Virus record (IMG/VR): IMGVR_UViG_3300050821_008386 | Span: 32,001-96,000 of that record | Origin: a virus | Length of the DNA: 64,000 nucleotides | Direction: 5' to 3' (one strand) | In this document: one piece after another, positions 14,901 to 30,402 of the stretch | Layout: every line of letters starts with the position of its first letter | How positions within the stretch are numbered: position 1 is the first letter of the stretch | Program-made: the position numbers and the translations under genes | Notes under the pieces: model-generated | Database searches by the model: none | The model's input: the letters and a program-made list of their open reading frames with translations, nothing else | What the model was told of the DNA's origin: nothing

Positions 14901-17900
14901 GATTCTATCTGCGCTGCAGATACGCCGGGATCAGGCGCGTGATTCGGGTCATAGACATCGATATAATTGGCGGCCACATGATGGTGTTTGCCGTCCATAT
15001 CGAAATCGCTCGGAGCGGTATCGTCCCACCGATAGGTTTTCCCGTCTTCCCCAATGAACTCTTCGCCGCTCGGCGCGCCGTTGATAGGATGCAATCCTCG
15101 AGCTCTTGCGCCTTCTAACGTTAGTCCGGCGCTATAACCCGGAATCATGCTGCCGGGTTTCTGGACATGCGCTCCGGCACCCACGCCGCGAAGACTGTTA
15201 TGATCCCAACTGTAATCGCCGGGATACCCGAATGCTCCGATGTTAGCGTGACCATGCGGTGCCATCGGTACAGGCGCTTCGCCTTTCATGGCGCGATGAA
15301 CTTGGCGTTGCGCCGTGCCAGGCTTAACCCCTTGTTGTCTCAGATGCTTCTGGACGCGTGCGGTTCCGGTCGTGGTTTCGGGAGTTTCCTGCGGTTCTTT
15401 CGGTTCAGGAGTCGTTTCCCCTGTGGGCGTCTCGGTCTTCTGTTGTTGTTGCTGCTCGGTCGTTTCTGGCGCGCCAGCTATGCTTCCTGTTGTCGGCGGT
15501 TGCGGTACGTTTGTCCCCGGAGGCACTGGGAGGTGGCCTGCATGCGGTTGCGGAGTCGGAGGTACCGGCCCCTGCGGTACAGGCGTGGGCGTTACCGGGC
15601 CTTGCGGGGTTCCAGTCGGTGGAATCGGTATTCCGCCGGAAGATTTAGGTTCTTCAGGCGTTCCGGTTTTAGGTGAAGTCGTCTCGGGTTCGGCAGCTTT
15701 CGTCTCACCTTTTGGCGTTTCCGTCTCAGCAGGAGGCGGTGTCGTCTCAGATTTCTTCGGAGGTTCTGACTCCTGTTTAGGTGTCTCCTTTGGTTGCTCG
15801 GGAGTAGGTGTCGGTCCGGAGGTGACTTTCCCCTCTTTAGGTATTTTACCGACGAGTTCGTTTACCTCGGGATAAGTCAGTCCACGATACCAGTTGCCTT
15901 TCCCATCGTTAAAATCGTACAGATCACCCGCTTTATTGAGTCCCGCGCTTCGCGGTTCAATTGGTCCTTTCTCAGGTTTAATGGTCTTGCCTGAACTTAG
16001 CGAAACATCAGGAGGAAGTTCGGCGTTCTTAGCGTTGACTGCGTTCCGTATCGCCTCAACCGCGTTCGTGGCGTCGTTCTGGACGTGTTTTTCCGCTTCC
16101 TCCGGGGTAAACCCTTTCTCGGACATCAACGCCTGCTTAGCGATATCCGCAGGCGTTTCTTTCGCCGGTTTACCTGCCTGACGTTCAGCGGTTTTCTTGT
16201 CTCTCAGCGCGTCGACTGCATTTTTAACGACCTCTTCCCACGTCTCGCCGGCGGTGGTTTGCGCCGCTTTCTTAGCGTCTGCCGCTGACCATCCAACGCC
16301 GCGCAAGCCTTTGATAACATCCGCTGGATTGACGTTAGGACCGGGACGTTGGGCTTTCGGTGGCGGTTGAGGAGCCTGGGTCGCGTTCTCTGGGGCGGGA
16401 GTGCCGCTTGTCGGTTGCGGAGCGGGTCCCCCACCGCCGCCTCCAGTGCTGGTCGAGGCTCCCTTTGTCCGATTGGGTTGATTGAACAGGTCTGGACCTT
16501 GATTCGGTCTGGCGTTCGGATTAGGTCGATCCAAAACCGGTGGTGCACCCGCGCCTTGTCCCAGATTCCTTCGAAGCGTATCCCTGACCAGCGGTTCAAG
16601 AACCATGGCCGCCTGAATGGATTGTCTCAATCCCAGAACCGTATTGGACCGCGTGGTCGTGGGATTAAAACCCATGTCATCCAGAACGCGCCAGAAGGCT
16701 TGCTGGGTCTGATGGAACATGGTCGGGTCACGGGTCAGATCTCTGATACTTCCGCCTTTAAGGAGTCCTGATAACGCTTCGGTCGCCATCTCCCTCTGCA
16801 TATCTTCCTTGGTCATTCCGCGGAGGCCCGGGACGAATTGCCCCGTCCCGTTATTGATCTCGGTCTGACTCGGCAACTGGTCGTAGGTGGCGCTCTGTTG
16901 ACCTAACGTTGCCCGACTGGTGTAATCGGAGGTGAAATCGTTGGGGTCATTTGTCCGACTGAACGCTTGGAAGAAAGTCGATAGATCTTGCGGATTACCC
17001 AACTCCATCCGCGAGATGATCGGGTGCGCCAGTTCATGATGAAACGCGTCATCGAAAGCGTCTGCGCGGACCAGTACCCGCGCCTGATTCTGACCTGGAT
17101 TGGGGTCAATGGCGACTCCGCGCGAGTTCATTACCGGATCGTTCATCCAACCTAAGTTCTGCATCCGTTCCATCTCTGCGGCGTACGGTTTCGGATTGAG
17201 AACGTAAATCTCGCTCATCCCGTTCGCTTGAGTTCTGGTCTGATTGATCAGATGCTTTTGCGCGTTGGAAAACATCGGTTTCCCGGTCGCTGGATCGAGG
17301 GAATTGAGCGCTTGTTCGTGCGCTTCATCGAGAGCTTTATTGGTCCCGTACGGCGTCGGCGGATCTGCCGGTTTACGGCTTTGCCCCCAATTGGTGTCGG
17401 TAATGAACGCTGAATCAGCTAACCGATTTTGAGCAATCGCCGCAGCGTCAGGGACGGCGTGACTCAAGAGGCCCAGGCTCGTCCCCATCCCTAAAAGTGA
17501 ACCAATATCCTGCGGAGTTTTGGCTCCCAAAAGCGCAGGCGTCATACCCATCATCCCTTCACCTGCCCGCTGCATTCCGGTAACGAGGATCTGTTTAGCC
17601 GCGCTCCGGGTTGCCAGAAGGTTTTCGGAATTGTCTGCGGCAAGTCGCATCGCGTCCGCAGCGTGTGAGGCCAAAAACGATGTCGCTTTAGAAATGTTTC
17701 CGGCACCGCCCGCAATCAGGTCCACGCCGTAATCGACTAGCGGCATCTTGAACATCCCGGCGGCGACAGCGGCCAATGGGCCGGGTATCCCGAGAGTTTG
17801 TCCGATATAATGGCCTGCGATAGCTTTGGTCGCGGTCCCCACGAGGCCTTTGGCGATCTTGGTCGCAACCGGCGGCATCTGGAAATCGTGCATGTTCTGT

Positions 17901-19582: not shown

Positions 19583-19620
19583 AAGATTAACTGTAATGGA
19601 AACGACTCTCGGGCGCTACT

Positions 19621-19932
19621 TTGACTTTTATGCAAAAGGCGCGACTTTTATCCATGGTTAACTTCCTTCCTGGCATGAATCCTGAAGAGGAAAAGCGCCA
19701 TGCTGAACGGGCGAAGTGCCGTCATCACGACGTGATTCTGACTCCTCTGGAAAAAGCAGTCTGGGGATGGTTCGGTGCCGCGCTTGTCACCGCAGTAGCG
19801 CTCGGAATCGGGTTGATGCTGGTTCTTTTGATCGTTCCGGCCACCATGGGCGCGTTGTCAGGATTAGGTGTTCACGCCCTATTAGTCCTGATTGTCGTGC
19901 TCCTGCTGGTTTCCGCGCTCGGTCGCCGCTAA
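19621..19932 (+). CDS. Small two-pass membrane protein
   Basis: Two long hydrophobic stretches and basic C-terminus; lone plus-strand gene; start may be ATG 19654 or 19675. Confidence 0.7.
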   Translation: MTFMQKARLLSMVNFLPGMNPEEEKRHAERAKCRHHDVILTPLEKAVWGWFGAALVTAVALGIGLMLVLLIVPATMGALSGLGVHALLVLIVVLLLVSALGRR

Positions 19933-22250
19933 TAACCGGGCAGTTTCGTCACCGCTGGATAACCTTCGGACTGATATTTCGCCCCGACAGGCACCCGGTC
20001 GTAATCGGCTCGACTCTTGACCGGGAAAGGGAATTGATTGCCACCGGGCGCGTTGTCGCCGTCCGTGATCATGTTGGCTTTATACTGCGCGGTTGCCGGA
20101 ATCCTTTGGCGGTTAGCGATCATGTGATCCAACTGGACCTGCATGTTCTGACCTAGATATTTTAGGTTATTCTGAACCAGTTGCGGAAGGCGCGGACTAT
20201 CAAAACTGCCAATCAAGGATTCAACGCCTTGGGTTCCTTGCGCGTCAGCGGGAAGTCGTCCGGCAATAGCGGCGCCTGTTTGCGCTCGCATCGCCATATC
20301 GAGTTTCTGGTAAGCCTGATGCATTTCATCTACGCGCGGATCGCCGTCGCCAAGGTCAACGGCACCGCCTGTTGCTGCTTTGACGGCAGGTCCGAGATGG
20401 CTCATCAAGTTGGATTTACCCGCACTGTAGAGGTTGCGGATGCTTTCAGCAGCCGGATCGCCGGCGGTCTTATATTTGTCGATCAACCCTAAAAGATTGT
20501 TACTGGCGTCGATCACGTTTTCTTTAGCGGCCAAAGAATCGGTTTGCGCTTGGTTCACGGGCCAATCTTCAAGCGCTTGCGCTTGCTTGTAAGCGGCAAT
20601 CTTCGCTGGGCGACTCAAGGACTGCCAGTTGCCAGATACGGTCCCGGCTTTCATGCTGGCGTCCATCATCTCCTGATCTTCGTGTTGACCAATCGCGTTA
20701 TCGATCTCGCTCTCTTTGCCGTTCGCGTACACCCGCGTCTCGTGGTACGGCGTCTGGTTTCTGACTTGATAGAAATTCCCTTGTCCGTCGAGGTAGCCCG
20801 GAACCGCTTTACCAGCAACCCTGGCGACAATCTGGGTGCTCGGACGGAGGGGGTTTCCTTGCGCATCTGTTCCGTCTGGAGACGTCTCGGCGGGGCCAAC
20901 GACGTTGTATTGGTTGGCCGCTAGAGCCTTCCCAATCAGGTCAGGTGGAACGCCGCCGAACGCTTGAGCGACAGCTTGAGACGACACTGGCCTCACGCCC
21001 GGATAGTTCGGGTCGGTATTATTAGATGGACGCTCAACAGGAAATCCGCCCGGACCAAGTTGCTGTCCAGAAGATTGCGCTTGTTGGCCGGGATTAGGAT
21101 TGACCATCTGCGCTCTTGGGACCGGTGGCGTGTACGGACTGGGTTGACCAGGAGTTCGCGGAGGCGCTTGCGGAGCCGCTTTAGTCCCGGCCCATGGCGC
21201 GCCTCCAGCACTCAGCACGTCCTGAGTCGACAGTTGGCCTTGCGCTAATCTGGTTGCCAGATCCTGATTCTGTTGATCGTCAGTCTGATCAATCTCACCT
21301 GCGGGCGAAGACGCCAAGGGTGCCGCTGCCGCAAGTCCTGCGGTTGCTACAGCGTTTTTGGGTGATTCCGCTGGTCCTTCTGGGGCGGATGGAGCACTCG
21401 GAACGGGTTTACCCATCGCCGGGTTATTGGTCGCGGCCGCTAAACCGGGGAGATAAGTTGCCGCCCATGTCTTATCGACCGGTTGCATCGGCACCCCATC
21501 CGTATGGTGAATCATGATGCGGTTAGTCGGTTGACCTTGCGCATCAAATTCAGCGTTCCATCCCGTCGCTTTATCCGTGATGTGCTGCTTGTAGGCTTTG
21601 TAAATGTCAGCGCCAGCGGGTAACGATGTCGCCGTAGCGGCGTTCGCGGCATCGGTTATAGTCGGTACTTGCTGGGTCTGATGCGCTGGTTCCTGCTGAT
21701 TTGCGGGCGTAATAGGCCCGACCGGCGCAGTATTGGATTGGGTATTGTTCTGGGGATTATCGGGAGGCGGGGTAGGTGGTGGAGCAGCAAAGCCCTGCCC
21801 TCCTGGATTTAAATCCTGCTGTTTAACGCCACCAAACGGGACAGGATAAGAGGGAACGCCAACGTTTGTCCCTTGGATATTAGTCTGGTACTGGAGACTG
21901 TTATCCTGCGGATTCTGGTTAACGTCATTCTGAATCCCTTTCAGGCGTTCTTGCGCGAGATTCTGTTCCTGCATCTCGGTCTGGATCTTCTGCGCTTCCA
22001 GAGGGAGCTGTTGCGCCTGACGATACGCTCCGGCAATGTTGCCGGGAAGGTTCGCGAGTGTTTGACCTACGGACGCACCCCAGTTAGGCACCCGCAGTTC
22101 AGGAGGCGTCGGAGGACGATCAGCGGATGCCAGTGATCCTAGTAGACTTGCTTCGCTCTGGACCAGTTGCGGTGCCGCGAGGACCGCTGGCGCATTGTAA
22201 GGCTGCTCGTATGTGAAGAACTGGACTAGACCCTTTGGAGTGTGCTTCAT
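19929..22250 (-). CDS. Putative internal virion protein, Pro/Gln/Ala-rich, 773 aa
   Basis: Position directly before the giant protein, low-complexity composition, ATGA overlap with upstream gene. Confidence 0.7.
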   Translation of the reverse strand: MKHTPKGLVQFFTYEQPYNAPAVLAAPQLVQSEASLLGSLASADRPPTPPELRVPNWGASVGQTLANLPGNIAGAYRQAQQLPLEAQKIQTEMQEQNLAQERLKGIQNDVNQNPQDNSLQYQTNIQGTNVGVPSYPVPFGGVKQQDLNPGGQGFAAPPPTPPPDNPQNNTQSNTAPVGPITPANQQEPAHQTQQVPTITDAANAATATSLPAGADIYKAYKQHITDKATGWNAEFDAQGQPTNRIMIHHTDGVPMQPVDKTWAATYLPGLAAATNNPAMGKPVPSAPSAPEGPAESPKNAVATAGLAAAAPLASSPAGEIDQTDDQQNQDLATRLAQGQLSTQDVLSAGGAPWAGTKAAPQAPPRTPGQPSPYTPPVPRAQMVNPNPGQQAQSSGQQLGPGGFPVERPSNNTDPNYPGVRPVSSQAVAQAFGGVPPDLIGKALAANQYNVVGPAETSPDGTDAQGNPLRPSTQIVARVAGKAVPGYLDGQGNFYQVRNQTPYHETRVYANGKESEIDNAIGQHEDQEMMDASMKAGTVSGNWQSLSRPAKIAAYKQAQALEDWPVNQAQTDSLAAKENVIDASNNLLGLIDKYKTAGDPAAESIRNLYSAGKSNLMSHLGPAVKAATGGAVDLGDGDPRVDEMHQAYQKLDMAMRAQTGAAIAGRLPADAQGTQGVESLIGSFDSPRLPQLVQNNLKYLGQNMQVQLDHMIANRQRIPATAQYKANMITDGDNAPGGNQFPFPVKSRADYDRVPVGAKYQSEGYPAVTKLPGY

Positions 22251-23410
22251 GATACGGTCGGAGGCTTAAACTGGCTTAAAGGTACGCCGTTCGGCATTGA
22301 CGGGACGCCGGGAACGCCCGGAGTGAACATTTTGCCGATACTGGAAATTAAAGCGCCCACCGAACTTCCGATTCCGGCAGCTTGCTGTTGTCCGGTAAGA
22401 CCGTTGCCGCTGACCGATCCTACGGTAGGGGTACCGTCTGCTCCTGCGGTATACCCGCTGGCGTCGAGTCCGCCATTGGCGTAATTGGCTCCGCCCGCAC
22501 CCAGAGCAGGCGCGTTCACTGCTCCGCTCACAGGCGCGGCATCCACGCTTCCGAGATCCTGGGTGGTTCCACCCGGCGTCTGGTACTGCGCGGCTTGCGC
22601 CATTGATATTTGCGGAGTCTGGTTGGATTGATACTTCCGCATGATCGGGGCAATGGAATTGAGCAACGATTGACTCGAAGATCCAGCTTGTGACGGAACG
22701 CCCATCTGGCCGATTGATGCTGTCAGGCTGGGATTAGAGAGAGCTTGCGCTGCGTTAGCGCCGATCATGTCAGTGACCGCTTGCGGATTATTGGCCGGGA
22801 CCGTGGTTGGCGTCGACGGAAGCGCCGTTGGCGTCATGGGTATGACAGGAACATTGGCTTGAGTCGCCTGCGGATTGTACGTCGCGGTGGGGGGCGTTGG
22901 CGGGGGCGATTGAGTTGGGCTAGGCGTCTTAGGTGTCAGAGTCGAGTTAGCGTTAGACGCCGTTGATTGATAGTTCTGGAGAAGTTGTTCGGCCTGCGTG
23001 ACCAGCGGGCTCTCGAATGACGCGCCGTTCAGGATTCCGTTAGGTTGATTGATCCATGCGCGAATGGTGCCCGGTTCAGGAGATCCACCACTGCCATACT
23101 GGTTATTCACCGATTCATCGTACGAACCGCCTTGCGAGGGAGCGCTTCCGCCTGTCCATCCAAGAGTCGAAGGGTTGCCTTGCGCATCGTAGACGGTTCT
23201 TCCCTGATTTTGACTGAACCAGTTCTGGAGAGATTCATCGCTCTCGTCGGCGGACGGGATCGTGTTGGTGACGTTGTTCGCCGGCCCGTTATATTTCCCG
23301 CCATTCGCCGCTGGAGAATTTCCCGGTGACTGGTTCTGGGTTTTCATGGCGTTGATCAATAAGGACAGCATCTGTGCCAAAGACGCTGGATCTGTTGTGG
23401 TAGCCGCCAT
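22247..23410 (-). CDS. Putative internal virion protein, 387 aa
   Basis: Ser/Gly/Gln/Pro-rich with C-terminal GIGSSVGALISSIGKMF glycine-rich helix; 10 nt downstream of tfuA. Confidence 0.7.
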   Translation of the reverse strand: MAATTTDPASLAQMLSLLINAMKTQNQSPGNSPAANGGKYNGPANNVTNTIPSADESDESLQNWFSQNQGRTVYDAQGNPSTLGWTGGSAPSQGGSYDESVNNQYGSGGSPEPGTIRAWINQPNGILNGASFESPLVTQAEQLLQNYQSTASNANSTLTPKTPSPTQSPPPTPPTATYNPQATQANVPVIPMTPTALPSTPTTVPANNPQAVTDMIGANAAQALSNPSLTASIGQMGVPSQAGSSSQSLLNSIAPIMRKYQSNQTPQISMAQAAQYQTPGGTTQDLGSVDAAPVSGAVNAPALGAGGANYANGGLDASGYTAGADGTPTVGSVSGNGLTGQQQAAGIGSSVGALISSIGKMFTPGVPGVPSMPNGVPLSQFKPPTVS

Positions 23411-23420
23411 GACCTATAAT

Positions 23421-24713
23421 TTAGCCTTCCGGTCCCTTTCTTGCGAGAGCCAATCTGGAGAGACAAACCCTCAGTTCAGCCACACTGCTGATCCCTGTTT
23501 CCCGCAAATAATTATCGAGCGTTCCGGCGATCTCTAATCCGGTCGCTTCCAGATGTTCCTGAAACATCCCTTGCAGGTTTTCGGTGAAATCGATTCCAAC
23601 CGTATCGGTGTTTTCCCGGTCGACAATGATCCGTTCAGCGTCCGCGCAATCGTCCAACCACATCTGGAGTTGGTTATGGGTCCGCATGTAATCCAGGATC
23701 GTCTGGGTCTGCCGTCGGAACATGCAGGTCGTGATATAAGTCTCGTGCAGTTTCCTGATCCGAGCGTTCTGGATGGTCATCACCTCGAAATTGGCCGGCG
23801 TCATCGCGTTAGCGTTGAGCCAGTCCAGATACTGATCCCAAACCACCAACCGATTGCGCGCACAGAACGTTGACCATTCGTACTCGATATCTTCTTTGGT
23901 CACCGCAACATGGAGGATGTCCGCCAGAATCACCGCTAACGCCCGGTTTTTCGAATCCCAACAGATCTGGTTATATTGCGGGCAATTGAGGGTGATATAG
24001 GAATCGACGTGCTGCATCGTGATCGTCGCTCCCGCATGCTCCACTCTCCGTTCCCTCTCTAACATGGCGTTAAAAAGCATCGTCATGTAGGTCAGGTCAG
24101 GCCGTTTATCCGTGCAATAATCCAGGGTCAGGAAATTCGATAAAAGATGAAGAGCGTCTTCCCGTTTCTGATCAAAAACGTAACGCGAATCGGGACTGGT
24201 CAGGCGTTCGGTATAATGTTTGCCCTGTTCAGTCTTAAAGATTTCCCCGGCTTCTTCCGGCGTAATTTCCTCACTTTCAATCAACCGAAGGAGGCCAGCG
24301 CGGAGATTGACCAGAGGGCAAGTGTCGCAAACGTAGTTTCCTGAAGGCGTCTGATGATAAATCACCGCTACTTCGTCATCTGCGTCGATTACCCCTTCGT
24401 GATACCACTCGAAGATCTTCCCAGAACCGATCATCACACCCACATCTGCTAATTCAGATGCCCGCAGGGCTCCCATGGACGATGAACCGTAAACCTTGAT
24501 CCCTTTTAGTGCCGCCCAGCTTAATTCCTTATGCCAGACGGGCAATTTAGAATCGAAAACACCATCAATCAGCAGGATATGGGTCGGGTTATACTTCGGG
24601 ACGTCCGAAATGATGTCAGCATGACTGGCTGGAGGGAGGAAAACAGCGTCGGGAACGATCTCTTTAGCGAATCCAACGTCTAATGAGGGCCCGAGATAAA
24701 CCAAAACTTTCAC
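23421..24713 (-). CDS. tfuA: TfuA-like protein with long C-terminal helical extension
   Basis: VYLGPSL, PPASHADI, LIDGVF..VWHKE, GSSSMGALRASEL, GKIFEWY..G.I.ADDEVAV, PLVNLRA, HYTER and DQKREDA motifs; GTGA overlap with ycaO. Confidence 0.95.
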   Translation of the reverse strand: MKVLVYLGPSLDVGFAKEIVPDAVFLPPASHADIISDVPKYNPTHILLIDGVFDSKLPVWHKELSWAALKGIKVYGSSSMGALRASELADVGVMIGSGKIFEWYHEGVIDADDEVAVIYHQTPSGNYVCDTCPLVNLRAGLLRLIESEEITPEEAGEIFKTEQGKHYTERLTSPDSRYVFDQKREDALHLLSNFLTLDYCTDKRPDLTYMTMLFNAMLERERRVEHAGATITMQHVDSYITLNCPQYNQICWDSKNRALAVILADILHVAVTKEDIEYEWSTFCARNRLVVWDQYLDWLNANAMTPANFEVMTIQNARIRKLHETYITTCMFRRQTQTILDYMRTHNQLQMWLDDCADAERIIVDRENTDTVGIDFTENLQGMFQEHLEATGLEIAGTLDNYLRETGISSVAELRVCLSRLALARKGPEG

Positions 24714-25930
24714 GCGTGCTCCTTAATTGACGCGAGTTTGTTGTGGACGTGAAGTTTGCATCGTTCATCCGGTTGCCAGAATTCCCAAATAGGACTGCAA
24801 AGTGATGGGGAGATCGCTCGAACAATGGTGAACGCCGGTTCTTTGGATTCGTAGAGGATTTTCGAGTAACATTCCGAAACCCCTCGTTGCCGGATTCGGT
24901 TAGAAAGAATTTCCCATTCTTCAGTGATTGAATCGAACTCCGGACGCGGGAATTCAGACGCCAAACGTGATAACGGCACCGCTTGATACATCTCAAGGAG
25001 TTGCCGGGAATCGATGTTCTTAGTCAGCATGAACCGGCGCCGGAACAGGTCGTCACGCGCTGAACCGATGTAAGCGACACGCGCCTGGCACGCTTCAGTG
25101 ATCGCCCTGCGCATCGCGGTCGAAGAATTAAGCGAACATCCGTACCCGGAAAAGATGCCGGGAGAGCGCGAACTCGGATCGATCACGGTGCATCCGAACA
25201 CCGGGACCTGCATATCGTTGGAAAGATCGAAGAGAAACGGGTAAACCCCTGCCCGCGCTAGTGCTTCCAGACAAAACTCGATTTCTTCGGTCAACGGACA
25301 ATCGAAACTGACTCGGTCAGGCCAGATATCGGTTTGTTCACGCAAATATTCGCTGGTAGCCCATCCATCACGTTCCACCAGTTCGTAGACCGCTTGCAGA
25401 AGAGCGTCTTCATAATTGATTCCGGCCGCCAGACCGTTGGACGAACTCTGGAAATAATGAAAAGGCGGTATGACCCGGTGCGTCAGCCAGATCATGTCGC
25501 TCGGAACGAGGATCTCGCCTTCCCTGAAAACGTCTGTAACTATCTCCCATGGAATTGGAGTCGAAGAATAAACTGGTGCTCCGCGTGCCAGAGGGAATAA
25601 ATCTGTCCCTAGAACGGATGGAAAGACAGAGATCGCTCGCGCCGGTTCGAGGTAAAACCAAGGGACATTGGCGTGCGGCTTCTCGCCGGCCCAGAGCTCG
25701 ACGCCTTCCAGGATCGCACCCGCTTTCGCGGCGATCTTGGAAAGACCTTTTCCTGCGCTTACCGTTATCACTTCGCCGCCCGGACGCGATACGGTGTAAA
25801 CCGGTAGTCCGATGGTATCAAGGCCCGTGATATCCGAAGCGCGCGTCAGTCCGTACTCCATCAATCGCGAATAGGGTAACGCGCATATCTCGCGTGCTAG
25901 CTCCTCGCGGACGTGTTCCCGGTCGATCAT
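24710..25930 (-). CDS. ycaO: YcaO-family ATP-dependent amide-activating enzyme, thioamide-forming type
   Basis: GLTRASDITGLDTIGLPV, SAGKG..GAILEGVE, SSNGLAAG, YELVERD, GYGC..AMRRAITEACQAR; no C-terminal PxP motif; start set at ATG 25930 (ATGA overlap), ORF track start is 25963. Confidence 0.95.
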   Translation of the reverse strand: MIDREHVREELAREICALPYSRLMEYGLTRASDITGLDTIGLPVYTVSRPGGEVITVSAGKGLSKIAAKAGAILEGVELWAGEKPHANVPWFYLEPARAISVFPSVLGTDLFPLARGAPVYSSTPIPWEIVTDVFREGEILVPSDMIWLTHRVIPPFHYFQSSSNGLAAGINYEDALLQAVYELVERDGWATSEYLREQTDIWPDRVSFDCPLTEEIEFCLEALARAGVYPFLFDLSNDMQVPVFGCTVIDPSSRSPGIFSGYGCSLNSSTAMRRAITEACQARVAYIGSARDDLFRRRFMLTKNIDSRQLLEMYQAVPLSRLASEFPRPEFDSITEEWEILSNRIRQRGVSECYSKILYESKEPAFTIVRAISPSLCSPIWEFWQPDERCKLHVHNKLASIKEHA

Positions 25931-27570
25931 GCCGCCAGTGGCAACGACGGAAGGTTTGCGCATCGGACGCCGTACCGGAACCGGATAACGTTGCGATTGC
26001 GTTCCAGAACTTCGTCCATGAACTCTCGGATATTGGCGATCACTTCAGGATCCACGTCTTCCCGGTTAGCGAACGTCTCGCTGTATCTGAGGTAAAGGCC
26101 TTTGAGCCAACCGGGCGCGTTGAAATAAAGCCAGAGACGGAACAAACGCCATTCAGGATTGTTCGCGCCATAGACTTTTCTTGCGACGTGACACGACATG
26201 GCGAAAGCCACTCCGACTGCTACCGCGCTTGCTGCGCCTGCGCCGCCTGAGATCATGTTGCCGCTCGATTGAGCTTGCGCACTGGCGTTTTGCGCGGCGA
26301 TCTGGGTGTTGTACTGCGCGCCCTGAACTTTGGTCGAGTACAGGTACTGCATCATGTTGTTTAGCCCTGCAGTGTTCGATAAACTGATGTTGGCAGCGTC
26401 CGACCCTTGTAACCCGAACGAGCGCGGTTGAAACATCGAAGAAGCCAGACCGAAACTTGCGTTGGCGTTCTGTGCAGCGCTATTGATGATCCCCTGACCG
26501 CCTTGCATAGCGTTTGACCCGGCACTTTCCAGTCCGGTCCCGGCGCCGATCATGCTTGTTCCGGCGTTAGTAACCCCTGTTCCCGCCCCAATCATGCCGC
26601 TTCCGGCATTGATGACACCGGTCCCTGCGCCGATTACGCCGCTGCCCGCGCCGATCATCCCGGTACCGGCATTAGCAACATTGGTTCCCGCTCCGGCAAG
26701 AGTCGCCGCTGCCCCTGCTTGGCCGGTAGTAAGTCCCATCCCGGTCTGTTGCAGCGCTTGCCCCTGCTGGCGCTGCGTATTGACCCAGTTTTCCGCGCCG
26801 ACACCGAGATTTCTTCCCACAGCGGCCTGCCCAGCTTCCCCACCTAATCCTGCGGCACCTCCAAGCGCAGATGCCGCACTGCTTAGTCCGCTTCGCATCA
26901 GTTCTTGTTGGACTACCGGATCAATCGCCTGATTGCCCGAGATGAGGTTCTGGCCCAGCGTGATGTCAGGTTGACCTACTCCTTGCGCTCCGGCAGCAAG
27001 AGTCGCCGCGGGCGCGAGAAATTGGCCTGATTGCCCCGCAAGATTCTGGCCTGCGCCGATGATGTTCTGTCCTGTACCGATGATGCCCTGCCCCCAGCCT
27101 GCGATGTTCTGGCCTTGGCCGATGATGCCTTGACCTGTTCCTGCGAGATTTTGACCTTGCCCAACGATATTGGAACCCGAAGTCAGCATTCCTTGGCCTG
27201 CGTTACTTAAACTGTTTCCGGCAGCGATCGATTGTGGCGTCTGGGTACCCAGCAAGTTGGTCAAGTACCCCTGATACTGCTGCTGTGCCTGAATCATTTG
27301 CGGATAACGCGCCGCGAAATCGGCGTCGCTCATCGCATAGTTCAGTTGATTGGCCATGATCGCCTGGCCTTCAGGAGTGTTAACGCCAGCAGCGCCAGCA
27401 GCCCCTAATCCCGAAGCATTCAGAACGCCGCTCATACTGCTGGAACCAGGAGATGGGGTCTGGTTTTGCAGTGCGCTAATGTATTGGTCTGCGCCGATAC
27501 CCGCGCTCGGAGTGAACGAAGGAGCGCCCGCCGGGGCGCTATAGCTTGGGATCTGAGGTGCACTGCCCAT
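25927..27570 (-). CDS. Putative internal virion (pilot/ejection) protein with Gly heptad repeats and CFI-box-like C-terminal domain
   Basis: Begins MGSAPQ; two blocks of 7-aa Gly repeats; hydrophobic segment then CHVARKVYG..W..FR.W....AP.W...LY..Y.E..A. Confidence 0.8.
   Translation of the reverse strand: MGSAPQIPSYSAPAGAPSFTPSAGIGADQYISALQNQTPSPGSSSMSGVLNASGLGAAGAAGVNTPEGQAIMANQLNYAMSDADFAARYPQMIQAQQQYQGYLTNLLGTQTPQSIAAGNSLSNAGQGMLTSGSNIVGQGQNLAGTGQGIIGQGQNIAGWGQGIIGTGQNIIGAGQNLAGQSGQFLAPAATLAAGAQGVGQPDITLGQNLISGNQAIDPVVQQELMRSGLSSAASALGGAAGLGGEAGQAAVGRNLGVGAENWVNTQRQQGQALQQTGMGLTTGQAGAAATLAGAGTNVANAGTGMIGAGSGVIGAGTGVINAGSGMIGAGTGVTNAGTSMIGAGTGLESAGSNAMQGGQGIINSAAQNANASFGLASSMFQPRSFGLQGSDAANISLSNTAGLNNMMQYLYSTKVQGAQYNTQIAAQNASAQAQSSGNMISGGAGAASAVAVGVAFAMSCHVARKVYGANNPEWRLFRLWLYFNAPGWLKGLYLRYSETFANREDVDPEVIANIREFMDEVLERNRNVIRFRYGVRCANLPSLPLAA
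26478..27220 (-). repeat. Two blocks of degenerate 21-nt (heptad) coding repeats
   Basis: GQNLAGT/GQGIIGQ/GQNIAGW/GQGIIGT/GQNIIGA (about 27020-27220) and GTGMIGA/GSGVIGA/GTGVINA/GSGMIGA/GTGVTNA/GTSMIGA (about 26478-26700). Confidence 0.85.
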
Positions 27571-27585
27571 TTAGAAAATATCCTT

Positions 27586-27939
27586 TCAATCTGAGATCAC
27601 GTAAACGTCTTTATCGAAGGGTCTTAACCCGATCTTTGAATACATGCGTGCGTCCACTCCTGGTGGCATAGCAATCAGCGGGTCGCCGTGCATCGCCTTG
27701 ATCCGGTCCAGCCATTTCTTAGTCAGGATATAGAATTGGCGCGGAGAAATTGACGGTTGCACCGCCGGGTAAGCCACCATCTGCTGATGCATGTGGCAGT
27801 AAGTCACCAGTCGCCCGTCCAGATGCCCTACCCAGATCGGGAAAAGTCTGCTCACCTCGTGCCCGAACGTTGCCGCGAACTCATCGAGATTATGCGCCCT
27901 CAATTGCTTCTCGTTTTCGATCTTGGTGAACGTGATCAT
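27586..27939 (-). CDS. Small protein, possible degenerate GNAT acetyltransferase fold
   Basis: ATGA overlap with fibre gene; VGHLDGRLVTY and RMYSKIGLRP resemble GNAT elements; sits before ejection genes as GNAT-like genes do in many podoviruses. Confidence 0.5.
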   Translation of the reverse strand: MITFTKIENEKQLRAHNLDEFAATFGHEVSRLFPIWVGHLDGRLVTYCHMHQQMVAYPAVQPSISPRQFYILTKKWLDRIKAMHGDPLIAMPPGVDARMYSKIGLRPFDKDVYVISD

Positions 27940-29462
27940 AACTCGGCGTTTGCGGTATACTGAAACCGGATGGCGTTGGAAGGAGACGTCCACGAACCGG
28001 CGGTGCTGATCAGGTCGAACCCGCTTTCATTCAGTGTCTGAGTGGTAGTGATGCTCCCTACCGTGACACCTTGAGACTGGGAATAGACCCCCCCTGACCT
28101 TCCGTCAGACCCCAGCACGGTCCATGTTACTAAATTGGGTGTCGTGCGCATCTTGACCGGGAAACGGCACACTCCCCATGCTTGCGTAGCGGCCAGGGCG
28201 ATAAAGGCGAGTTCTCCTAGAGATGAGGCGCCGCTGGTAAAGGTGATTGTTGAACCGGAACTATTCGTTCCAATCAGAGCGGCACTCAACGTGACGGTAG
28301 TCGGAGATACCGCAGACACTGTCACGCCGGCGGAAATATTGGTTCCAAACACTGGCATCCCGACAGCCACTGCCGCGATTCCGGGTGCGGTCGTGGAAGC
28401 GAAACTTAAAACGGTCGCACCCACGAGAACTGTTGTGTTGGTCACCAGGTTGAATGCCACCGGGTAAACGCTCATCGGATGCGATTTAGCCCAGTACCTC
28501 TGGCACCGCCTTAAATCTTCGTCGAATGGGACGAACTTGAAGTAGTTGGAGATAGGGGACGGTTCGTGTTGAACCAGAGTGATATCAAGGGTGTTGCCAA
28601 TCGTCGCGAACAGATTGGTCTGATTCGCCGTTCCGAGCTGGTTCTCGGAATTCCAGATATTCGGCAGATCCTGATAATCTGATCCGTTGGTCGCACTGAC
28701 CGAAATTACGTAGCAAGAATCAGTGTTCACTGTCCCCCAGTTGCCGGTCGAGGTGGGCATCGCCGGGATAGTCGGGAAAGTAAAATACTGAGGGACCGAG
28801 GGCGTGGTGATGACGCATTCCATCACGTACGACCACGTCTGGTCCGCATCTCTGATAGCGACACAATAAGTCCCGGCAAGAGAAGATTGGAGCACGATGG
28901 AAAGCGACGTTTCGTTATCAAAGAGGGGCCGGGAAAAGCCGCGTTCGATTCTCTGGGTAACGACGAAATATTCTCCGGCGGCGATCGTCAATTGAGCGGT
29001 GGTCACCGTCATCCGTAACGCCATCTGGGTATCAGGGTATTGAGAGGTTCCCGGAAAATTGACTACCTGCTGAGTGACTGTCGCCGCCCCGCCTCCTGTC
29101 ATATTACTGGTAACCACCCATCTGTCAGCGGTATAAACGGCCTGAGTGGTCCCGATATTCGGGAACGTGACGTTCCTCTGCCAGATCTGCATGTTGGCAT
29201 TGATGACCGAGTTATAAATCGGACTCGAAGTGATCGGCAGATATTCGGATTGCGCGGTGTTCCACGCCCACCATTGTCCATCGTTAAACCACGGTCCCAC
29301 ATTACTGGGCGGCGTTGATCCGCCGGTTTGCCCTAAAAGGAAATTAGCGGTGATCGACGCCTGGAGATTGGCCACCAGCAATTGGCCGTACTGATTGGCA
29401 TCCAAGGATTGGCCTGTAGGGATGGGTGCCAGAGAGAAGATGATGGGAATCGTGGTAGCCAT
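27936..29462 (-). CDS. Tail fibre / receptor-binding protein
   Basis: INANMQIWQR..YTADRW, EDLRRCQRYW and FPVKMRTTP motifs common in phage fibres; N-terminal about 75 aa shared with 29486-30400. Confidence 0.8.
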   Translation of the reverse strand: MATTIPIIFSLAPIPTGQSLDANQYGQLLVANLQASITANFLLGQTGGSTPPSNVGPWFNDGQWWAWNTAQSEYLPITSSPIYNSVINANMQIWQRNVTFPNIGTTQAVYTADRWVVTSNMTGGGAATVTQQVVNFPGTSQYPDTQMALRMTVTTAQLTIAAGEYFVVTQRIERGFSRPLFDNETSLSIVLQSSLAGTYCVAIRDADQTWSYVMECVITTPSVPQYFTFPTIPAMPTSTGNWGTVNTDSCYVISVSATNGSDYQDLPNIWNSENQLGTANQTNLFATIGNTLDITLVQHEPSPISNYFKFVPFDEDLRRCQRYWAKSHPMSVYPVAFNLVTNTTVLVGATVLSFASTTAPGIAAVAVGMPVFGTNISAGVTVSAVSPTTVTLSAALIGTNSSGSTITFTSGASSLGELAFIALAATQAWGVCRFPVKMRTTPNLVTWTVLGSDGRSGGVYSQSQGVTVGSITTTQTLNESGFDLISTAGSWTSPSNAIRFQYTANAEL

Positions 29463-29485
29463 ATCAGGTATACATTAGTAGTGAC

Positions 29486-30400
29486 CTACGTTTTTATAAT
29501 TTTAGTCATAACTAAGCTTGGTTGAATGTTGTTATGGCCCGTGCCGCCTCCTGCCGCATTATTTGTTGCGGTAGCGTTTTCTATGGCGGCAAAGCCAGCG
29601 GCGATTGCCGCGTGCCCTTCCGCGATCGAGGCAAAGCCCGTGTTAATTCCGATACCTGTACCGCTGGGATTGGTCGCGGCACTCCCGGATTGGAAGGTAC
29701 TGCCTCCAGCGAGACTGCTGCCGGGGGCAGAAAGGACCGCGTTAACATAGCCGTGAACATGCCCTGGGTCAGTGATGCCGTGAGCGTGCCCGTTATCAGA
29801 ATGGAAGTGACCAGAGTCAGAATGCAAATGGCCCGCGTCAGCGTGCGCGTGAGCGTTTTGAGTGTGATTGTGACTTGCCAGTTCGCTTACGGCTAGGACG
29901 TGATTTTCTTCCCCTACCTTCTGGCCGATCGTTCTCGCTGTCAGGCCCGATCCGGCACCGGTACCTAGCCCAACCCTGCCTCGAGCGTCGGGTACAGCGA
30001 AAGTGGAACTGCCATCACCCGCGCCGTAGCTTGTCCCGATGACCGAAAACAGTCCAGCCATAGCCCCTGTGCGCAGATAAAGAGAACCGTCACAAAGAAC
30101 GAATCCTGTCGGAGCAACTATCCCGCCGAAATCGATGATTGAACCTGTTGGGAAACTGGAGGTTAAACTCTGCGGAATATATTGTTGGCTGCCCGGATCC
30201 CAGTAGTACCAGACGCCGTTATTGAACCAAGGACCAATGTCGGCGGTGGGCGCTGAACCGCCGATTTGTCCCGTCAAAAACTGGCCTGAGATGTAGGCTT
30301 GCAGGTTCGAAACCAGAATCTGGGCATATTGGTTGGCGTCCAAACTTTGTCCGGTAGGAATTGGCGCACAAGAAAAAGTGATGGGAAACTGGAGAGCCAT
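29486..30400 (-). CDS. Tail fibre protein with tail collar domain
   Basis: PTGSIIDFGG..APTGFVLCDG..LFSVIGTSYGAGDGSSTFAVPDARGR, HxH repeats and HNNIQPSLVMTKIIKT. Confidence 0.92.
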   Translation of the reverse strand: MALQFPITFSCAPIPTGQSLDANQYAQILVSNLQAYISGQFLTGQIGGSAPTADIGPWFNNGVWYYWDPGSQQYIPQSLTSSFPTGSIIDFGGIVAPTGFVLCDGSLYLRTGAMAGLFSVIGTSYGAGDGSSTFAVPDARGRVGLGTGAGSGLTARTIGQKVGEENHVLAVSELASHNHTQNAHAHADAGHLHSDSGHFHSDNGHAHGITDPGHVHGYVNAVLSAPGSSLAGGSTFQSGSAATNPSGTGIGINTGFASIAEGHAAIAAGFAAIENATATNNAAGGGTGHNNIQPSLVMTKIIKT

Positions 30401-30402
30401 AT

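What the first reader, a model, noticed from the sequence alone, without database searches (positions are those of the whole stretch)
23421..25930. Phage-encoded YcaO-TfuA thioamidation system inside the ejection-protein operon
Seen: intact ycaO and tfuA genes with the recognisable family motifs, joined to each other by a GTGA overlap (24710-24713) and to the upstream virion gene by an ATGA overlap (25927-25930). The next virion gene starts 10 nt after tfuA. Established: YcaO + TfuA pairs install backbone thioamides (McrA thioglycine in methanogens; thioviridamide-type and thiovarsolin RiPPs), and this YcaO lacks the C-terminal PxP motif of azoline-forming YcaOs. No short precursor peptide, protease, transporter or ThiS gene is adjacent. 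Inference: the phage thioamidates a full-size protein late in infection, either its own internal virion proteins (stability, protease resistance, escape from host sensors) or a host target. I know of no described phage system of this kind.
Basis: partly seen in the sequence, partly recalled or inferred. Interest (0 to 1): 0.95.

Follow-up and report, generated by a model that had tools for sequence, protein, structure and literature searches.

The report
Phage YcaO-TfuA backbone thioamidation pair
An uncultured soil phage, like its relatives, carries among its virion genes an intact enzyme pair that in cells replaces a backbone oxygen with sulfur in a protein, so it probably modifies one of its own proteins, but the target is only inferred.

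Summary
ycaO (24710-25930) and a long tfuA (23421-24713) are intact on the minus strand, with the GTGA and ATGA overlaps and the 10-nt spacer as described. The record is a 131.8-kb IMG/VR phage with a terminase, tail-fibre genes and a giant ART-PolyVal protein.

The pair is a conserved part of the structural module.
- All 21 non-redundant IMG/VR loci found carry the upstream gene "up547" followed by YcaO. TfuA follows in all 19 that extend far enough.
- All 13 assessable contigs holding the capsid-like gene p413 carry the pair.
- dN/dS is 0.06-0.11.
- The phage YcaOs form their own clade.
- Contigs from other sequencing runs bridge two of the three gene junctions.

By homology the pair makes backbone thioamides, using host sulfur. 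The target is not shown. The Ala-rich segment of up547 is the leading candidate. However, I found the same tail architecture in 72 other viral contigs, none with YcaO or TfuA nearby.

I found no paper describing a phage pair. This scan has already reported the same system in at least 13 other genomes. I rate it a new variant of a known kind, interest 0.75.

The parts
24710..25930 (-). ycaO, 406 aa from the ATG at 25930 (the open frame reaches 25963, 417 aa)
   Evidence: PF02624 E 1.9e-50 over the full profile. The best solved relative is MJ1094, 6PE3/6PEU, profile E 7.1e-39. Homologues start at or near M12. ATGA overlap with the upstream stop.
24114..24713 (-). tfuA, N-terminal TfuA domain (residues 1-200)
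   Evidence: PF07812 E 1.1e-34. The AF2 model has mean pLDDT 88. It matches 6XP8, TfuA of M. acetivorans, at Z 26.0, rmsd 2.1 A over 191 residues, and by Foldseek at E 2.9e-13. The GTG start overlaps the ycaO stop.
23424..24113 (-). tfuA, C-terminal helical extension (residues 201-430)
   Evidence: No Pfam match. Modelled as helices. It aligns along its whole length with cellular long TfuAs, for example a 461-aa Streptomyces protein at 32% identity and 95% coverage. No clear fold match: one row at Z 7.3 to a SurA-like chaperone, which is a lead only.
25927..27570 (-). up547, the conserved virion-module protein just upstream; the leading but unproven candidate substrate
   Evidence: No Pfam, PHROG or NCBIfam match. 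A homologue lies directly before YcaO in 47 of the 128 non-redundant loci fetched, including 21 of 21 viral loci. Its Gly-rich repeat blocks are absent from its closest homologues, P0397 and P0398, which are 402 aa.
26194..26256 (-). Ala/Gly/Ser/Val-rich uncharged segment of up547 (residues 439-459)
   Evidence: Highest Kyte-Doolittle window of the protein, 1.64. In the 51 homologues examined, the 22 residues before the Cys or the C-terminus are pooled at 34% Ala, 13% Gly, 12% Ser and 9% Val; for 8 fragments the motif regex missed the Cys, so an unrelated tail entered the pool. The segment is identical in P0397.
25930..26193 (-). C-terminal Cys-led basic domain of up547 (residues 460-547)
   Evidence: Alignment A6. 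Its profile finds 1443 protein clusters at E <= 0.001. Not in Pfam at E <= 1. Absent from the up547 homologues of L006, L022 and L024, which end right after the Ala-rich segment.
27586..27993 (-). p135, a small conserved gene before up547; possibly GNAT-like
   Evidence: Present in 20 of 21 non-redundant viral loci. ESM Atlas feature score 0.97 and structure TM 0.62 to viral GNAT acetyltransferase clusters, a lead only. No Pfam match at E <= 1.
22247..23410 (-). dn387, a low-complexity protein 10 nt downstream of tfuA
   Evidence: ORF. No family match. No BLAST homologue in the related loci.
19929..22250 (-). dn773, a low-complexity protein whose start overlaps the end of dn387
   Evidence: ORF. 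No family match.
8915..19582 (-). Giant 3555-aa polyvalent protein at the end of the same gene block; ART-PolyVal domain at about 10658-11311
   Evidence: PF18760 ART-PolyVal E 4.5e-19, 70 bits against a cut-off of 31.2. Homologues lie about 5 kb downstream of TfuA in 10 related loci.
27936..30400 (-). Tail-fibre genes (508 aa and 304 aa) upstream of the cassette
   Evidence: phrog_4492 tail fibre E 3.2e-25. phrog_9116 tail protein E 3.9e-26. Pfam Collar E 4.3e-17.
56212..57453 (-). p413, probable major capsid protein that marks the phage lineage
   Evidence: 67-73% identical across relatives. The nearest Atlas clusters are viral, and a few carry capsid families (Phage_capsid_3 on 13% of one cluster's members, Gp13-like on 28% of another's), a lead only. 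The fold was not confirmed: the AF2 model had pLDDT 27.

Best explanation
The window comes from a large uncultured tailed phage. In its late structural gene block, between the tail-fibre genes and a giant injected-type polyvalent protein, lies a conserved cassette: p135, up547, YcaO, TfuA.

Shown:
- YcaO and TfuA are intact.
- They are under strong purifying selection.
- They have been inherited together with the structural module across a deep phage clade.

Inferred from homology:
- YcaO uses ATP to activate a backbone amide carbonyl.
- TfuA supplies sulfide by hydrolysing a thiocarboxylated ThiS-type carrier, which must come from the host.
- The product is a backbone thioamide.

Inferred from gene position and timing:
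- The substrate is a phage-encoded protein made from the same operon.
- The first candidate is the 20-25-residue Ala/Gly/Ser/Val-rich segment of up547. Its stop codon overlaps the YcaO start. I put this particular target at about 0.3 to 0.35.
- The likely effect is a stiffer, protease-resistant backbone in a segment that may enter the host envelope during DNA ejection. This last step is speculation.
For: Enzyme identity:
- PF02624 E 1.9e-50 and PF07812 E 1.1e-34.
- The closest solved YcaO is the thioamide-forming MJ1094, E 7.1e-39.
- The TfuA N-domain matches 6XP8 at Z 26.
- Invariant residues across 23 homologues include E86, E89, E194, E197, R198, R286 and E290. Their role in binding ATP and Mg is recalled, not from a call.

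Phage context:
- Terminase, phrog_2 E 1.1e-12.
- Tail fibre and collar matches.
- ART-PolyVal in the giant protein.
- Relatives carry terminase, a portal-sized gene, p413, p634, p614, fibres, p135, up547, YcaO and TfuA in one colinear module.

Conservation:
- 21 of 21 non-redundant IMG/VR loci have up547 then YcaO. 19 of 21 have TfuA, and the other 2 end at YcaO.
- 13 of 18 p413-bearing contigs hold the pair. The other 5 end before that position.
- The two closest relatives have up547, YcaO and TfuA homologues on contigs of equal length, 102,662 and 5,553 bp.

Selection:
- dN/dS in 6 unsaturated pairs is 0.055-0.080 for YcaO and 0.078-0.112 for TfuA, against 0.080-0.124 for the tail gene p614.
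- A variant in run X2 differs in TfuA at 12 synonymous sites and 1 non-synonymous site, and in up547 at 9 synonymous and 0 non-synonymous.

Phylogeny: the phage YcaOs form a clade with support 0.98 (FastTree, 150 rows) and 97 (IQ-TREE, 52 rows).

Sulfur source: there is no ThiS in this record or in 5 relatives. TfuA as a hydrolase of ThiS-type thiocarboxylate comes from a passage of PMC13063428.

For up547 as the target:
- The genes are strictly adjacent with an ATGA overlap.
- A Nif11-leader precursor (E 2.6e-11) ending in an Ala/Val-rich core lies about 450 nt upstream of a related YcaO plus long TfuA in L100.
- In thioamitides a YcaO-TfuA pair iteratively thioamidates the N-terminal, Ala-containing tail of the core peptide (passages of PMC8153245).
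Against: - No experiment or proteomic data show a thioamide on any phage protein.
- The up547 tail architecture, a small-residue segment followed by the Cys-led domain, is not tied to YcaO. Its domain profile finds 1443 protein clusters. Of 73 other IMG/VR loci that carry the domain, 72 show the motif. 59 of those have at least 1500 nt downstream, and none of the 73 has YcaO or TfuA within 4 kb.
- up547 homologues were found only in contigs that also hold the pair, so co-occurrence cannot be separated from shared descent.
- The segment could simply be a membrane anchor (Kyte-Doolittle 1.64).
- Both proteins score far below the curated cut-offs of the McrA-thioglycine equivalogs: 136.8 against 365 bits and 137.8 against 235.2 bits. 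The chemistry is therefore inferred from family membership, not from orthology.
- The virion role of up547, dn387 and dn773 rests on position only.
- The record also holds TrwC relaxase and coupling-protein genes that 5 relatives lack, so its make-up outside the window is not fully understood.
Confidence: 0.6

Rival explanations
1. YcaO and TfuA act on a host protein. They would either be made late, or be packaged and injected together with the polyvalent protein, and would thioamidate a host target to aid takeover or counter-defence.
For: - The pair sits in the same block as a giant ART-PolyVal protein.
- YcaO enzymes that modify full-size cellular proteins are known: McrA and uL16 (PMC13063428, Introduction).
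- ycaO and tfuA genes are drawn inside Legionella conjugative transfer regions (figure legend of PMC3218107).
- About 30%-identical YcaOs lie on 330 plasmid records, so mobile elements without virions carry such pairs too.
Against: - The invariable placement directly after up547, with overlapping stop and start, in 21 of 21 viral loci is better explained by a partner encoded in the operon.
- The host is unknown, and no host-like target can be named.
- A single conserved host target would be hard to reconcile with YcaO identities falling to 30% across the clade.
Confidence: 0.15
2. The cassette is a RiPP-like pathway. up547 would be an oversized precursor whose thioamidated Ala-rich tail is cut out and released as a bioactive peptide.
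For: - In L006, L022, L024 and their relatives the up547 homologue ends right after the Ala-rich segment, as a core peptide would.
- A related cellular cluster has a Nif11-leader precursor with an Ala/Val-rich core.
- The long TfuA form is shared with actinomycete clusters.
Against: - No protease, transporter or immunity gene lies nearby.
- up547 is conserved along its whole length, including an N-terminal motif invariant in 19 homologues. It behaves like a structural protein of 210-576 aa rather than a leader.
- In most homologues the segment is internal, followed by a 64-93-aa domain.
Confidence: 0.1
3. The pair carries out other YcaO chemistry, such as amidine or azoline formation or proteolysis, or TfuA has another role here. 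The product would then not be a thioamide.
For: - YcaO enzymes install several kinds of modification (PMC13063428, Introduction).
- Both proteins fall below the thioglycine equivalog cut-offs.
Against: - In the papers I read (PMC5589413, PMC8153245, PMC13063428), TfuA-partnered YcaOs are tied to thioamidation, and I found no other chemistry reported for them.
- The TfuA fold and its conserved motif are intact.
- The closest solved YcaO is a thioamide former.
- The azoline-type C-terminal PxPxP run is absent (sequence; the motif's meaning is recalled).
Confidence: 0.07
4. The pair is an assembly chimera or a decaying passenger gene.
For: - The record is a metagenome assembly.
- It holds conjugation genes that its relatives lack.
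- Read depth in public runs is low, 2-5 fold.
Against: - The same order occurs in 21 independent viral loci and 26 further metagenome loci.
- Contigs of runs X1 and X2 bridge the YcaO/TfuA junction, and contigs of X1, X2 and X3 bridge the up547/YcaO junction.
- The frames are open, the motifs invariant and dN/dS is 0.06-0.11.
Confidence: 0.01

Closest known systems
Archaeal YcaO-TfuA that forms thioglycine in methyl-coenzyme M reductase McrA (MJ1094, PDB 6PE3/6PEU; TfuA, PDB 6XP8; TIGR03266 / NF033432)
   Same: - Adjacent ycaO and tfuA genes.
- A full-size protein as the presumed substrate, with no short precursor gene.
- The best solved relatives of both proteins.
- A thioamide that stabilises local protein structure (PMC5589413, abstract and passages).
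   Different: - Scores are far below the equivalog cut-offs.
- TfuA is twice as long: the methanogen TfuAs in L114 and L117 are about 217 aa.
- The phage YcaOs form a separate clade.
- The context is viral, there is no McrA, and the target is unknown.
Bacterial RiPP-type YcaO plus long TfuA pairs: thioamitides (TsaH/TsaI) and uncharacterised clusters with Nif11-leader precursors
   Same: - The long TfuA architecture aligns end to end.
- Substrates are stretches of small hydrophobic residues: the Ala/Val-rich core in L100 and the thioamitide tail (PMC8153245 passages).
- Thioamidation can be iterative.
   Different: - There is no separate short precursor, no leader protease, no transporter and no tailoring genes.
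- The candidate substrate is a 210-576-aa conserved phage protein.
- Cellular genomes gave only 26-38% identity over part of the YcaO.
E. coli YcaO, which thioamidates ribosomal protein uL16 (PMC13063428)
   Same: - A YcaO acting on a folded full-size protein, without a nearby small ORF.
- Substrate discovery by predicted complexes is the published route (abstract).
   Different: - E. coli has no TfuA (Discussion passage).
- The profile match is weak, E 0.00041 to 4Q84.
- It is a different YcaO subgroup.
ycaO and tfuA genes inside Legionella pneumophila F-type conjugative elements (PMC3218107, figure legend)
   Same: A YcaO-TfuA pair of unknown role carried by a mobile element that delivers DNA, and perhaps proteins, into a new cell.
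   Different: - That element is a conjugative element, not a virion module, and it was only annotated, never studied.
- Its relation to the phage clade was not tested beyond about 30% identity to plasmid YcaOs in general.

Membership tests
YcaO superfamily (PF02624) | Full-length match to the YcaO ATP/Mg-binding domain above the curated cut-off | tested here: met
   172.5 bits against a cut-off of 25.7, profile positions 1-324 of 325.
YcaO superfamily (PF02624) | Conserved acidic and basic motif residues of the ATP/Mg site | tested here: met
   E86, E89, Q172, E194, E197, R198, R286, E290, Q293 and R295 are invariant in 23 homologues of 42-77% identity. They align with MJ1094. Their assignment to ATP binding is recalled, not from a call.
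TfuA (PF07812) | TfuA domain by sequence and fold | tested here: met
   119.2 bits against a cut-off of 30. Z 26.0, rmsd 2.1 A over 191 residues to 6XP8. The S79-M-G81-A-L-R84 motif is invariant or nearly invariant in 30 sequences.
TfuA-dependent thioamide-forming YcaO systems | ycaO and tfuA adjacent and co-oriented | tested here: met
   GTGA overlap. TfuA follows YcaO in 19 of 21 viral loci, and the other 2 end at YcaO.
TfuA-dependent thioamide-forming YcaO systems | A ThiS-type sulfur carrier is available | not testable with these tools
   None is encoded in this record or in 5 relatives. The carrier would have to be the host's, and the host is unknown.
TfuA-dependent thioamide-forming YcaO systems | An O-to-S exchange is demonstrated on a substrate | not testable with these tools
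   This needs mass spectrometry or in vitro reconstitution.
McrA-glycine thioamidation equivalogs (TIGR03266, NF033432) | Score above NCBIfam's equivalog cut-off | tested here: not met
   136.8 against 365 bits, and 137.8 against 235.2 bits. The pair works like these enzymes but is not a member.
RiPP thioamidation clusters (thioamitide or Nif11 type) | A separate short precursor peptide gene beside the enzymes | tested here: not met
   Genes from 27993 to 19929 are packed with gaps of 15 nt or less. By contrast, the relative L100 does have a Nif11 precursor.
Azoline-forming YcaO cyclodehydratases | C-terminal PxPxP motif and an E1-like or RRE partner | tested here: not met
   The C-terminus has no PxPxP run. 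The SagD-type model scores 81.3 against a cut-off of 219.25 bits. The partner is TfuA. The motif's role is recalled.
Tailed-phage structural module | Terminase, capsid and tail genes in one module with the pair | tested here: inconclusive
   Terminase phrog_2 E 1.1e-12 and tail fibre and collar matches are met. The capsid assignment of p413 rests on Atlas leads, because its model failed at pLDDT 27. up547, dn387 and dn773 have no family match.
Polyvalent proteins of phages and conjugative elements | A giant multi-domain protein with an ART-PolyVal domain | tested here: met
   PF18760 at 70 bits against a cut-off of 31.2 in the 3555-aa protein.
   No NCBIfam family at E <= 1 for up547.

The most novel reading that the evidence does not exclude
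A whole clade of soil phages installs backbone thioamides in the Ala-rich, probably membrane-entering segment of an internal virion protein. This would be the first post-translational thioamidation known in a virus, and the third kind of thioamidated protein after McrA and uL16. It would serve to harden an ejected protein against host proteases or to fix its conformation during DNA delivery.
Probability: 0.3. Interest if true: 0.9.

Novelty: new variant of a known kind. Interest (0 to 1): 0.75.

Why it matters
According to the Introduction of PMC13063428, protein backbone thioamides are known in only two proteins, McrA and uL16. A phage lineage that keeps the enzyme pair as a fixed part of its virion and ejection gene block, under selection as strong as on a tail gene, implies a third use that is viral and unexplored.

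It also gives a concrete, cheap test. Co-express the pair with the few proteins of the operon and look for +15.977 Da.

If the target is a virion protein, this would be a new way for phages to alter the chemistry of their particles. It would also be a new source of thioamidating enzymes that accept protein-sized substrates.

Tried and rejected
- **Complex prediction.** YcaO (residues 12-417) with up547 (residues 370-547) gave no support: score 0.00 against a mark of 0.32, and the partner's own fold was uncertain. This counts neither for nor against binding.
- **Fold of p413.** The model failed at mean pLDDT 27. PDB profile searches with p413 and p614 found nothing useful. The capsid call therefore stays a lead.
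- **GenBank phages (50,697 records).** No tblastn match for YcaO, TfuA, p413 or p614.
- **Single-protein scan of IMG/VR with YcaO.** Nothing found. The alignment-based scan succeeded.
- **CFI-box-CTERM idea for the up547 tail.** No NCBIfam match.
- **C-terminal domain of TfuA.** Foldseek found no PDB match beyond the N-domain. The wide search gave one row at Z 7.3 to a SurA-like chaperone, too weak to use. I did not fold the domain alone.
- **Separate origin of the L019 YcaO.** It falls outside the phage clade in both trees. The AU test does not reject one clade, p 0.706, so I make no claim of gene replacement.
- **Promoters and terminators.** There are no more promoter-like or terminator-like sites in 19000-31500 than in shuffles, so there is no sign of a separate transcription unit.
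- **up547 homologues without the pair.** None found in IMG/VR, so this test was uninformative.
- **Names for proteins with the Cys-led domain.** No useful names and no Pfam family.
- **Expression.** No RNA holder was listed for the stretch.
- **TfuA/dn387 junction at 23410-23421.** No listed contig bridges it.
- **Literature.** One search did not require the word YcaO and was uninformative. The two papers that hold YcaO, TfuA and phage do not describe a phage-encoded pair (passages read). The genome-mining paper PMC8120280 has no occurrence of phage, virus or viral.
- **Genomic context of the closest homologues, P0002 to P0023.** It could not be read. I used equal contig lengths as a stand-in.

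Full report
**Observation.** On the minus strand an open frame runs 24710-25963 (417 aa) and another runs 23421-24713 (430 aa, GTG start).
- Pfam scores the first as YcaO (E 1.9e-50, profile positions 1-324 of 325).
- Pfam scores the second as TfuA (E 1.1e-34, residues 50-170).
- In an alignment of 23 homologues, the homologues begin at or near M12 of the long frame.

I read the junctions directly.
- GTGA at 24713-24710 joins the TfuA start to the YcaO stop, and AAGGAG lies five bases upstream.
- ATGA at 25930-25927 joins the YcaO start to the stop of the 547-aa upstream gene.
- Ten bases separate the TfuA stop from the next ATG at 23410.

The block 27993-19929 has no gap above 15 nt, so there is no room for a separate precursor gene.

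**What the element is.** The window is bases 32001-96000 of a 131,760-bp IMG/VR virus record, which CheckV puts at 91% complete.
- It encodes a large terminase (phrog_2, E 1.1e-12), a DnaB-like helicase, a RecT-like protein and an exonuclease.
- It encodes tail-fibre and collar proteins.
- At the end of the same minus-strand block it encodes a 3555-aa protein with an ART-PolyVal domain (E 4.5e-19). That such polyvalent proteins travel with the DNA into the host is recalled knowledge, not a result here.
- p413 is 67-73% identical across relatives. Its nearest ESM Atlas clusters are viral, and a few carry capsid families. Its fold could not be confirmed.
- GenBank phages hold no relative of YcaO, TfuA, p413 or p614, so this is an uncultured lineage.
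- Oddly, the record also carries a TrwC relaxase, a TrwB-type coupling protein and a weak TraG P-loop match outside the window. Five relatives lack TrwC.

**The enzymes.**
- A profile of the phage YcaOs finds the thioamide-forming MJ1094 (6PE3/6PEU) as the best solved relative, E 7.1e-39 over nearly the full length.
- Residues E86, E89, Q172, E194, E197, R198, R286, E290, Q293 and R295 are invariant in 23 homologues of 42-77% identity. That these make the ATP/Mg site is recalled.
- A TfuA model built on 30 sequences has mean pLDDT 88.
- TfuA residues 1-197 match the crystal structure of M. acetivorans TfuA, 6XP8, at Z 26.0, rmsd 2.1 A over 191 residues, and by Foldseek at E 2.9e-13.
- The helical C-terminal half has no clear fold match. 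It is not special to the phage, because cellular long TfuAs align over their whole length, for example a 461-aa Streptomyces protein at 32% identity and 95% coverage.
- Both proteins score far below the curated cut-offs of the McrA-thioglycine equivalogs. They are family members, not orthologues of the methanogen enzymes.
- Neither this record nor five relatives encode ThiS. TfuA is described as the hydrolase that frees sulfide from a thiocarboxylated ThiS-type carrier (Discussion passage of PMC13063428). That carrier would have to be the host's.

**Conservation.**
- A scan of IMG/VR with the YcaO alignment gave 24 loci, 21 of them non-redundant.
- Profile searches of their six-frame translations show the up547 homologue followed by YcaO, on one strand, in 21 of 21. 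p135 lies before them in 20 of 21. TfuA lies after them in 19 of 21, and the other two end at YcaO.
- The surrounding order is p285, p413, p634, p614, fibres, p135, up547, YcaO, TfuA, two or three large proteins, then a homologue of the giant protein.
- Upstream of p285 lie homologues of this record's terminase and its 830-aa portal-sized gene.
- Of 18 IMG/VR contigs found through p413, 13 are contigs already shown to hold the pair. The other 5 end before that position. I found no member that keeps the module and lacks the pair.
- The JGI metagenome scan gave 191 relatives, of which 79 loci were kept and 63 are non-redundant. 26 of those 63 have up547 upstream.
- The scan of 185,579 species genomes gave 44 loci with only 26-38% identity over part of the protein, from actinomycetes, methanogens and MAGs of other bacterial phyla. 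None has up547. No prophage copy and no host emerged.
- The closest relatives of this record's YcaO (76% and 66% identity), TfuA (74% and 76%) and up547 (67% and 51%) sit on contigs of 102,662 and 5,553 bp in all three searches.

**Selection and descent.**
- Only six pairs among L004, L017, L021 and L023 have unsaturated dS (0.41-1.15). In these, dN/dS is 0.055-0.080 for YcaO and 0.078-0.112 for TfuA, against 0.080-0.124 for the tail gene p614.
- A FastTree of 150 YcaOs places 42 of the 43 up547-associated sequences, the 23 close homologues and four sequences from contigs too short to show the neighbour in one clade with support 0.98. This clade is apart from the cellular sequences.
- An IQ-TREE of 52 rows gives the same clade at SH-aLRT 97.
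- The exception, L019, lies outside, but an AU test does not reject a single clade (p 0.706).

**Reads.** Four soil-metagenome runs from four studies hold parts of 22000-28200 as short contigs at depth 2-5.
- Contigs of X1 and X2 bridge the YcaO/TfuA junction.
- Contigs of X1, X2 and X3 bridge the up547/YcaO junction.
- No joints or loose ends were reported.
- X1 may be the source sample.
- X2 is a variant. Its listed differences are 12 synonymous and 1 non-synonymous in TfuA, 9 and 0 in up547, 0 and 1 in YcaO, and 6 and 3 in dn387.

**What is modified?** This is the open point. up547 is conserved along its length in 19 homologues.
- It has an N-terminal motif around residues 78-90.
- It has a motif with R383, G386 and G389.
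- It has an uncharged segment at residues 439-459, the most hydrophobic window of the protein at Kyte-Doolittle 1.64.
- It ends in a basic domain that begins with an invariant Cys.
- Across the 51 homologues examined, the 22 residues before the Cys or the C-terminus are 34% Ala, 13% Gly, 12% Ser and 9% Val when pooled. For 8 fragments the motif regex missed the Cys, so an unrelated tail entered the pool.
- In L006, L022, L024 and four further relatives the protein ends right after this segment.
- The Gly-rich repeat blocks that a first-stage note on this genome (e1-6152543) pointed to as a possible substrate are absent from the closest homologues, P0397 and P0398. These keep the Ala-rich segment, and in P0397 it is identical. 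The repeats are therefore not the conserved feature.

Two things favour the segment as the substrate.
- The adjacency with overlapping stop and start never varies.
- Related systems prefer such sequences. In L100 a Nif11-domain precursor (E 2.6e-11) ending in an Ala/Val-rich core lies about 450 nt before a YcaO and a long TfuA. Earlier reports of this scan gave me that lead. In thioamitides a YcaO-TfuA pair iteratively thioamidates the N-terminal, Ala-containing tail of the core peptide, and the thioamides protect against hydrolysis (passages of PMC8153245).

One new result weighs against reading too much into the architecture.
- A profile of the Cys-led domain finds 1443 protein clusters at E <= 0.001.
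- By my reading of the 150 listed, the domain is at the C-terminus of proteins of 76 to 1532 aa in all but one (P0319).
- Of 73 other IMG/VR loci fetched with one such protein, 72 show the motif preceded by a small-residue segment. 59 of these have at least 1500 nt downstream. None of the 73 has YcaO, TfuA, p135 or p413 within 4 kb.
- The tail design is therefore common in phages that lack the pair. It does not by itself mark a thioamidation substrate.

**Mechanism proposed.** Late in infection the operon yields up547, YcaO and TfuA together.
1. TfuA takes sulfide from host ThiS-thiocarboxylate.
2. YcaO phosphorylates a backbone carbonyl and sulfide replaces the oxygen, possibly at several sites in the Ala-rich segment.
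3. The modified protein is built into the particle.

The enzyme chemistry is inferred from homology. The phage-encoded target is inferred from operon structure and conservation. The identity of the target and the purpose are hypotheses. I give 0.6 to the statement that the pair thioamidates a phage-encoded protein of this block, and about 0.3 to up547 in particular. The rivals are a host target (0.15), a released RiPP-like peptide (0.1), other chemistry (0.07) and an artefact (0.01).

**Comparison with what is known.** The pair works like the McrA system and like bacterial RiPP-type YcaO plus long TfuA pairs. It is a member of the two superfamilies. It is not a member of the thioglycine equivalogs or of precursor-peptide clusters.
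- The Introduction of PMC13063428 says protein thioamides are known only in MCR and uL16.
- My searches for YcaO with TfuA and phage, with bacteriophage and thioamide, and with viral genomes and RiPP found no paper on a phage-encoded pair. I read passages of the two papers that hold all three words.
- One of these shows ycaO and tfuA drawn inside Legionella conjugative elements, with function unknown.
- About 30%-identical YcaOs occur on 330 plasmid records.

**Novelty and standing.** This is a new variant of a known kind: known enzymes in a viral, structural-module setting, with a probable protein-sized substrate. It is not new to this scan. Follow-up reports on at least 13 other genomes, mostly 74-77-kb relatives, reached the same reading. 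This window adds five things:
- a member of a larger-genome subclade;
- read-level support for the junctions;
- selection figures;
- the finding that the Gly repeats are dispensable;
- the finding that the Cys-led tail domain is widespread without YcaO.

Noticed in passing
window 25930-26193 (minus strand); loci L195-L267: The 88-aa Cys-led basic C-terminal domain of up547 belongs to a large family that Pfam lacks. Its profile finds 1443 protein clusters at E <= 0.001. The domain is nearly always at the extreme C-terminus of proteins of 76-1532 aa, and many of these are Gln/Asn/Ala-rich phage proteins. Some members are stand-alone proteins of about 80 aa.
   Followed up: partly
outside the window: L027:9354-12125, L027:16856-18232, L029:9720-12380: The same viral record encodes a TrwC relaxase with helicase (E 5.2e-53), a TrwB/TraG-type coupling protein and a weak TraG P-loop match. 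Five related phage records lack TrwC. This could be a phage-conjugative hybrid, an acquired module or an assembly join.
   Followed up: partly
window 27586-27993 (minus strand): p135, conserved directly before up547 in 20 of 21 viral loci, resembles small viral GNAT acetyltransferases in the ESM Atlas (features 0.97, structure TM 0.62). The Atlas holds it from residue 19 on. It has no Pfam match. It may be a third enzyme of the cassette.
   Followed up: partly
window 8915-19582 (minus strand): The 3555-aa protein has an ART-PolyVal ADP-ribosyltransferase domain at residues 2758-2975. Homologues lie about 5 kb downstream of TfuA in 10 related loci.
   Followed up: partly
L100:9183-9434, with YcaO at 9884-11113 and a long TfuA after it: A metagenome contig holds a Nif11-domain precursor (E 2.6e-11) whose C-terminal core is rich in Ala and Val, about 450 nt upstream of a YcaO plus a roughly 470-aa TfuA. 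It looks like an uncharacterised thioamidated RiPP cluster. Its YcaO is the nearest relative (41% identity) of the YcaO of viral locus L019.
   Followed up: partly
window 26500-27220 (minus strand, inside up547): The two blocks of Gly-rich 7-residue repeats in up547 are insertions specific to this phage. The closest homologues, P0397 and P0398 (402 aa), lack them.
   Followed up: yes
window 60100-61383; L029:852-2099; L029:5047-6537: Sugar-modifying genes lie among the head genes of this record: a UDP-GlcNAc 2-epimerase-like protein (E 4.7e-30), a C-methyltransferase (Methyltransf_14, E 1e-41) and a weak glycosyltransferase-like match. Homologues of the 496-aa protein occur in relatives between the portal-sized gene and p285.
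   Followed up: no
window 3308-4321 (minus strand); L027:13669-15306: Two DNA methyltransferases are present: a phrog_67 match at E 1.7e-72, and a C-5 cytosine methylase at E 2.7e-52.
   Followed up: no
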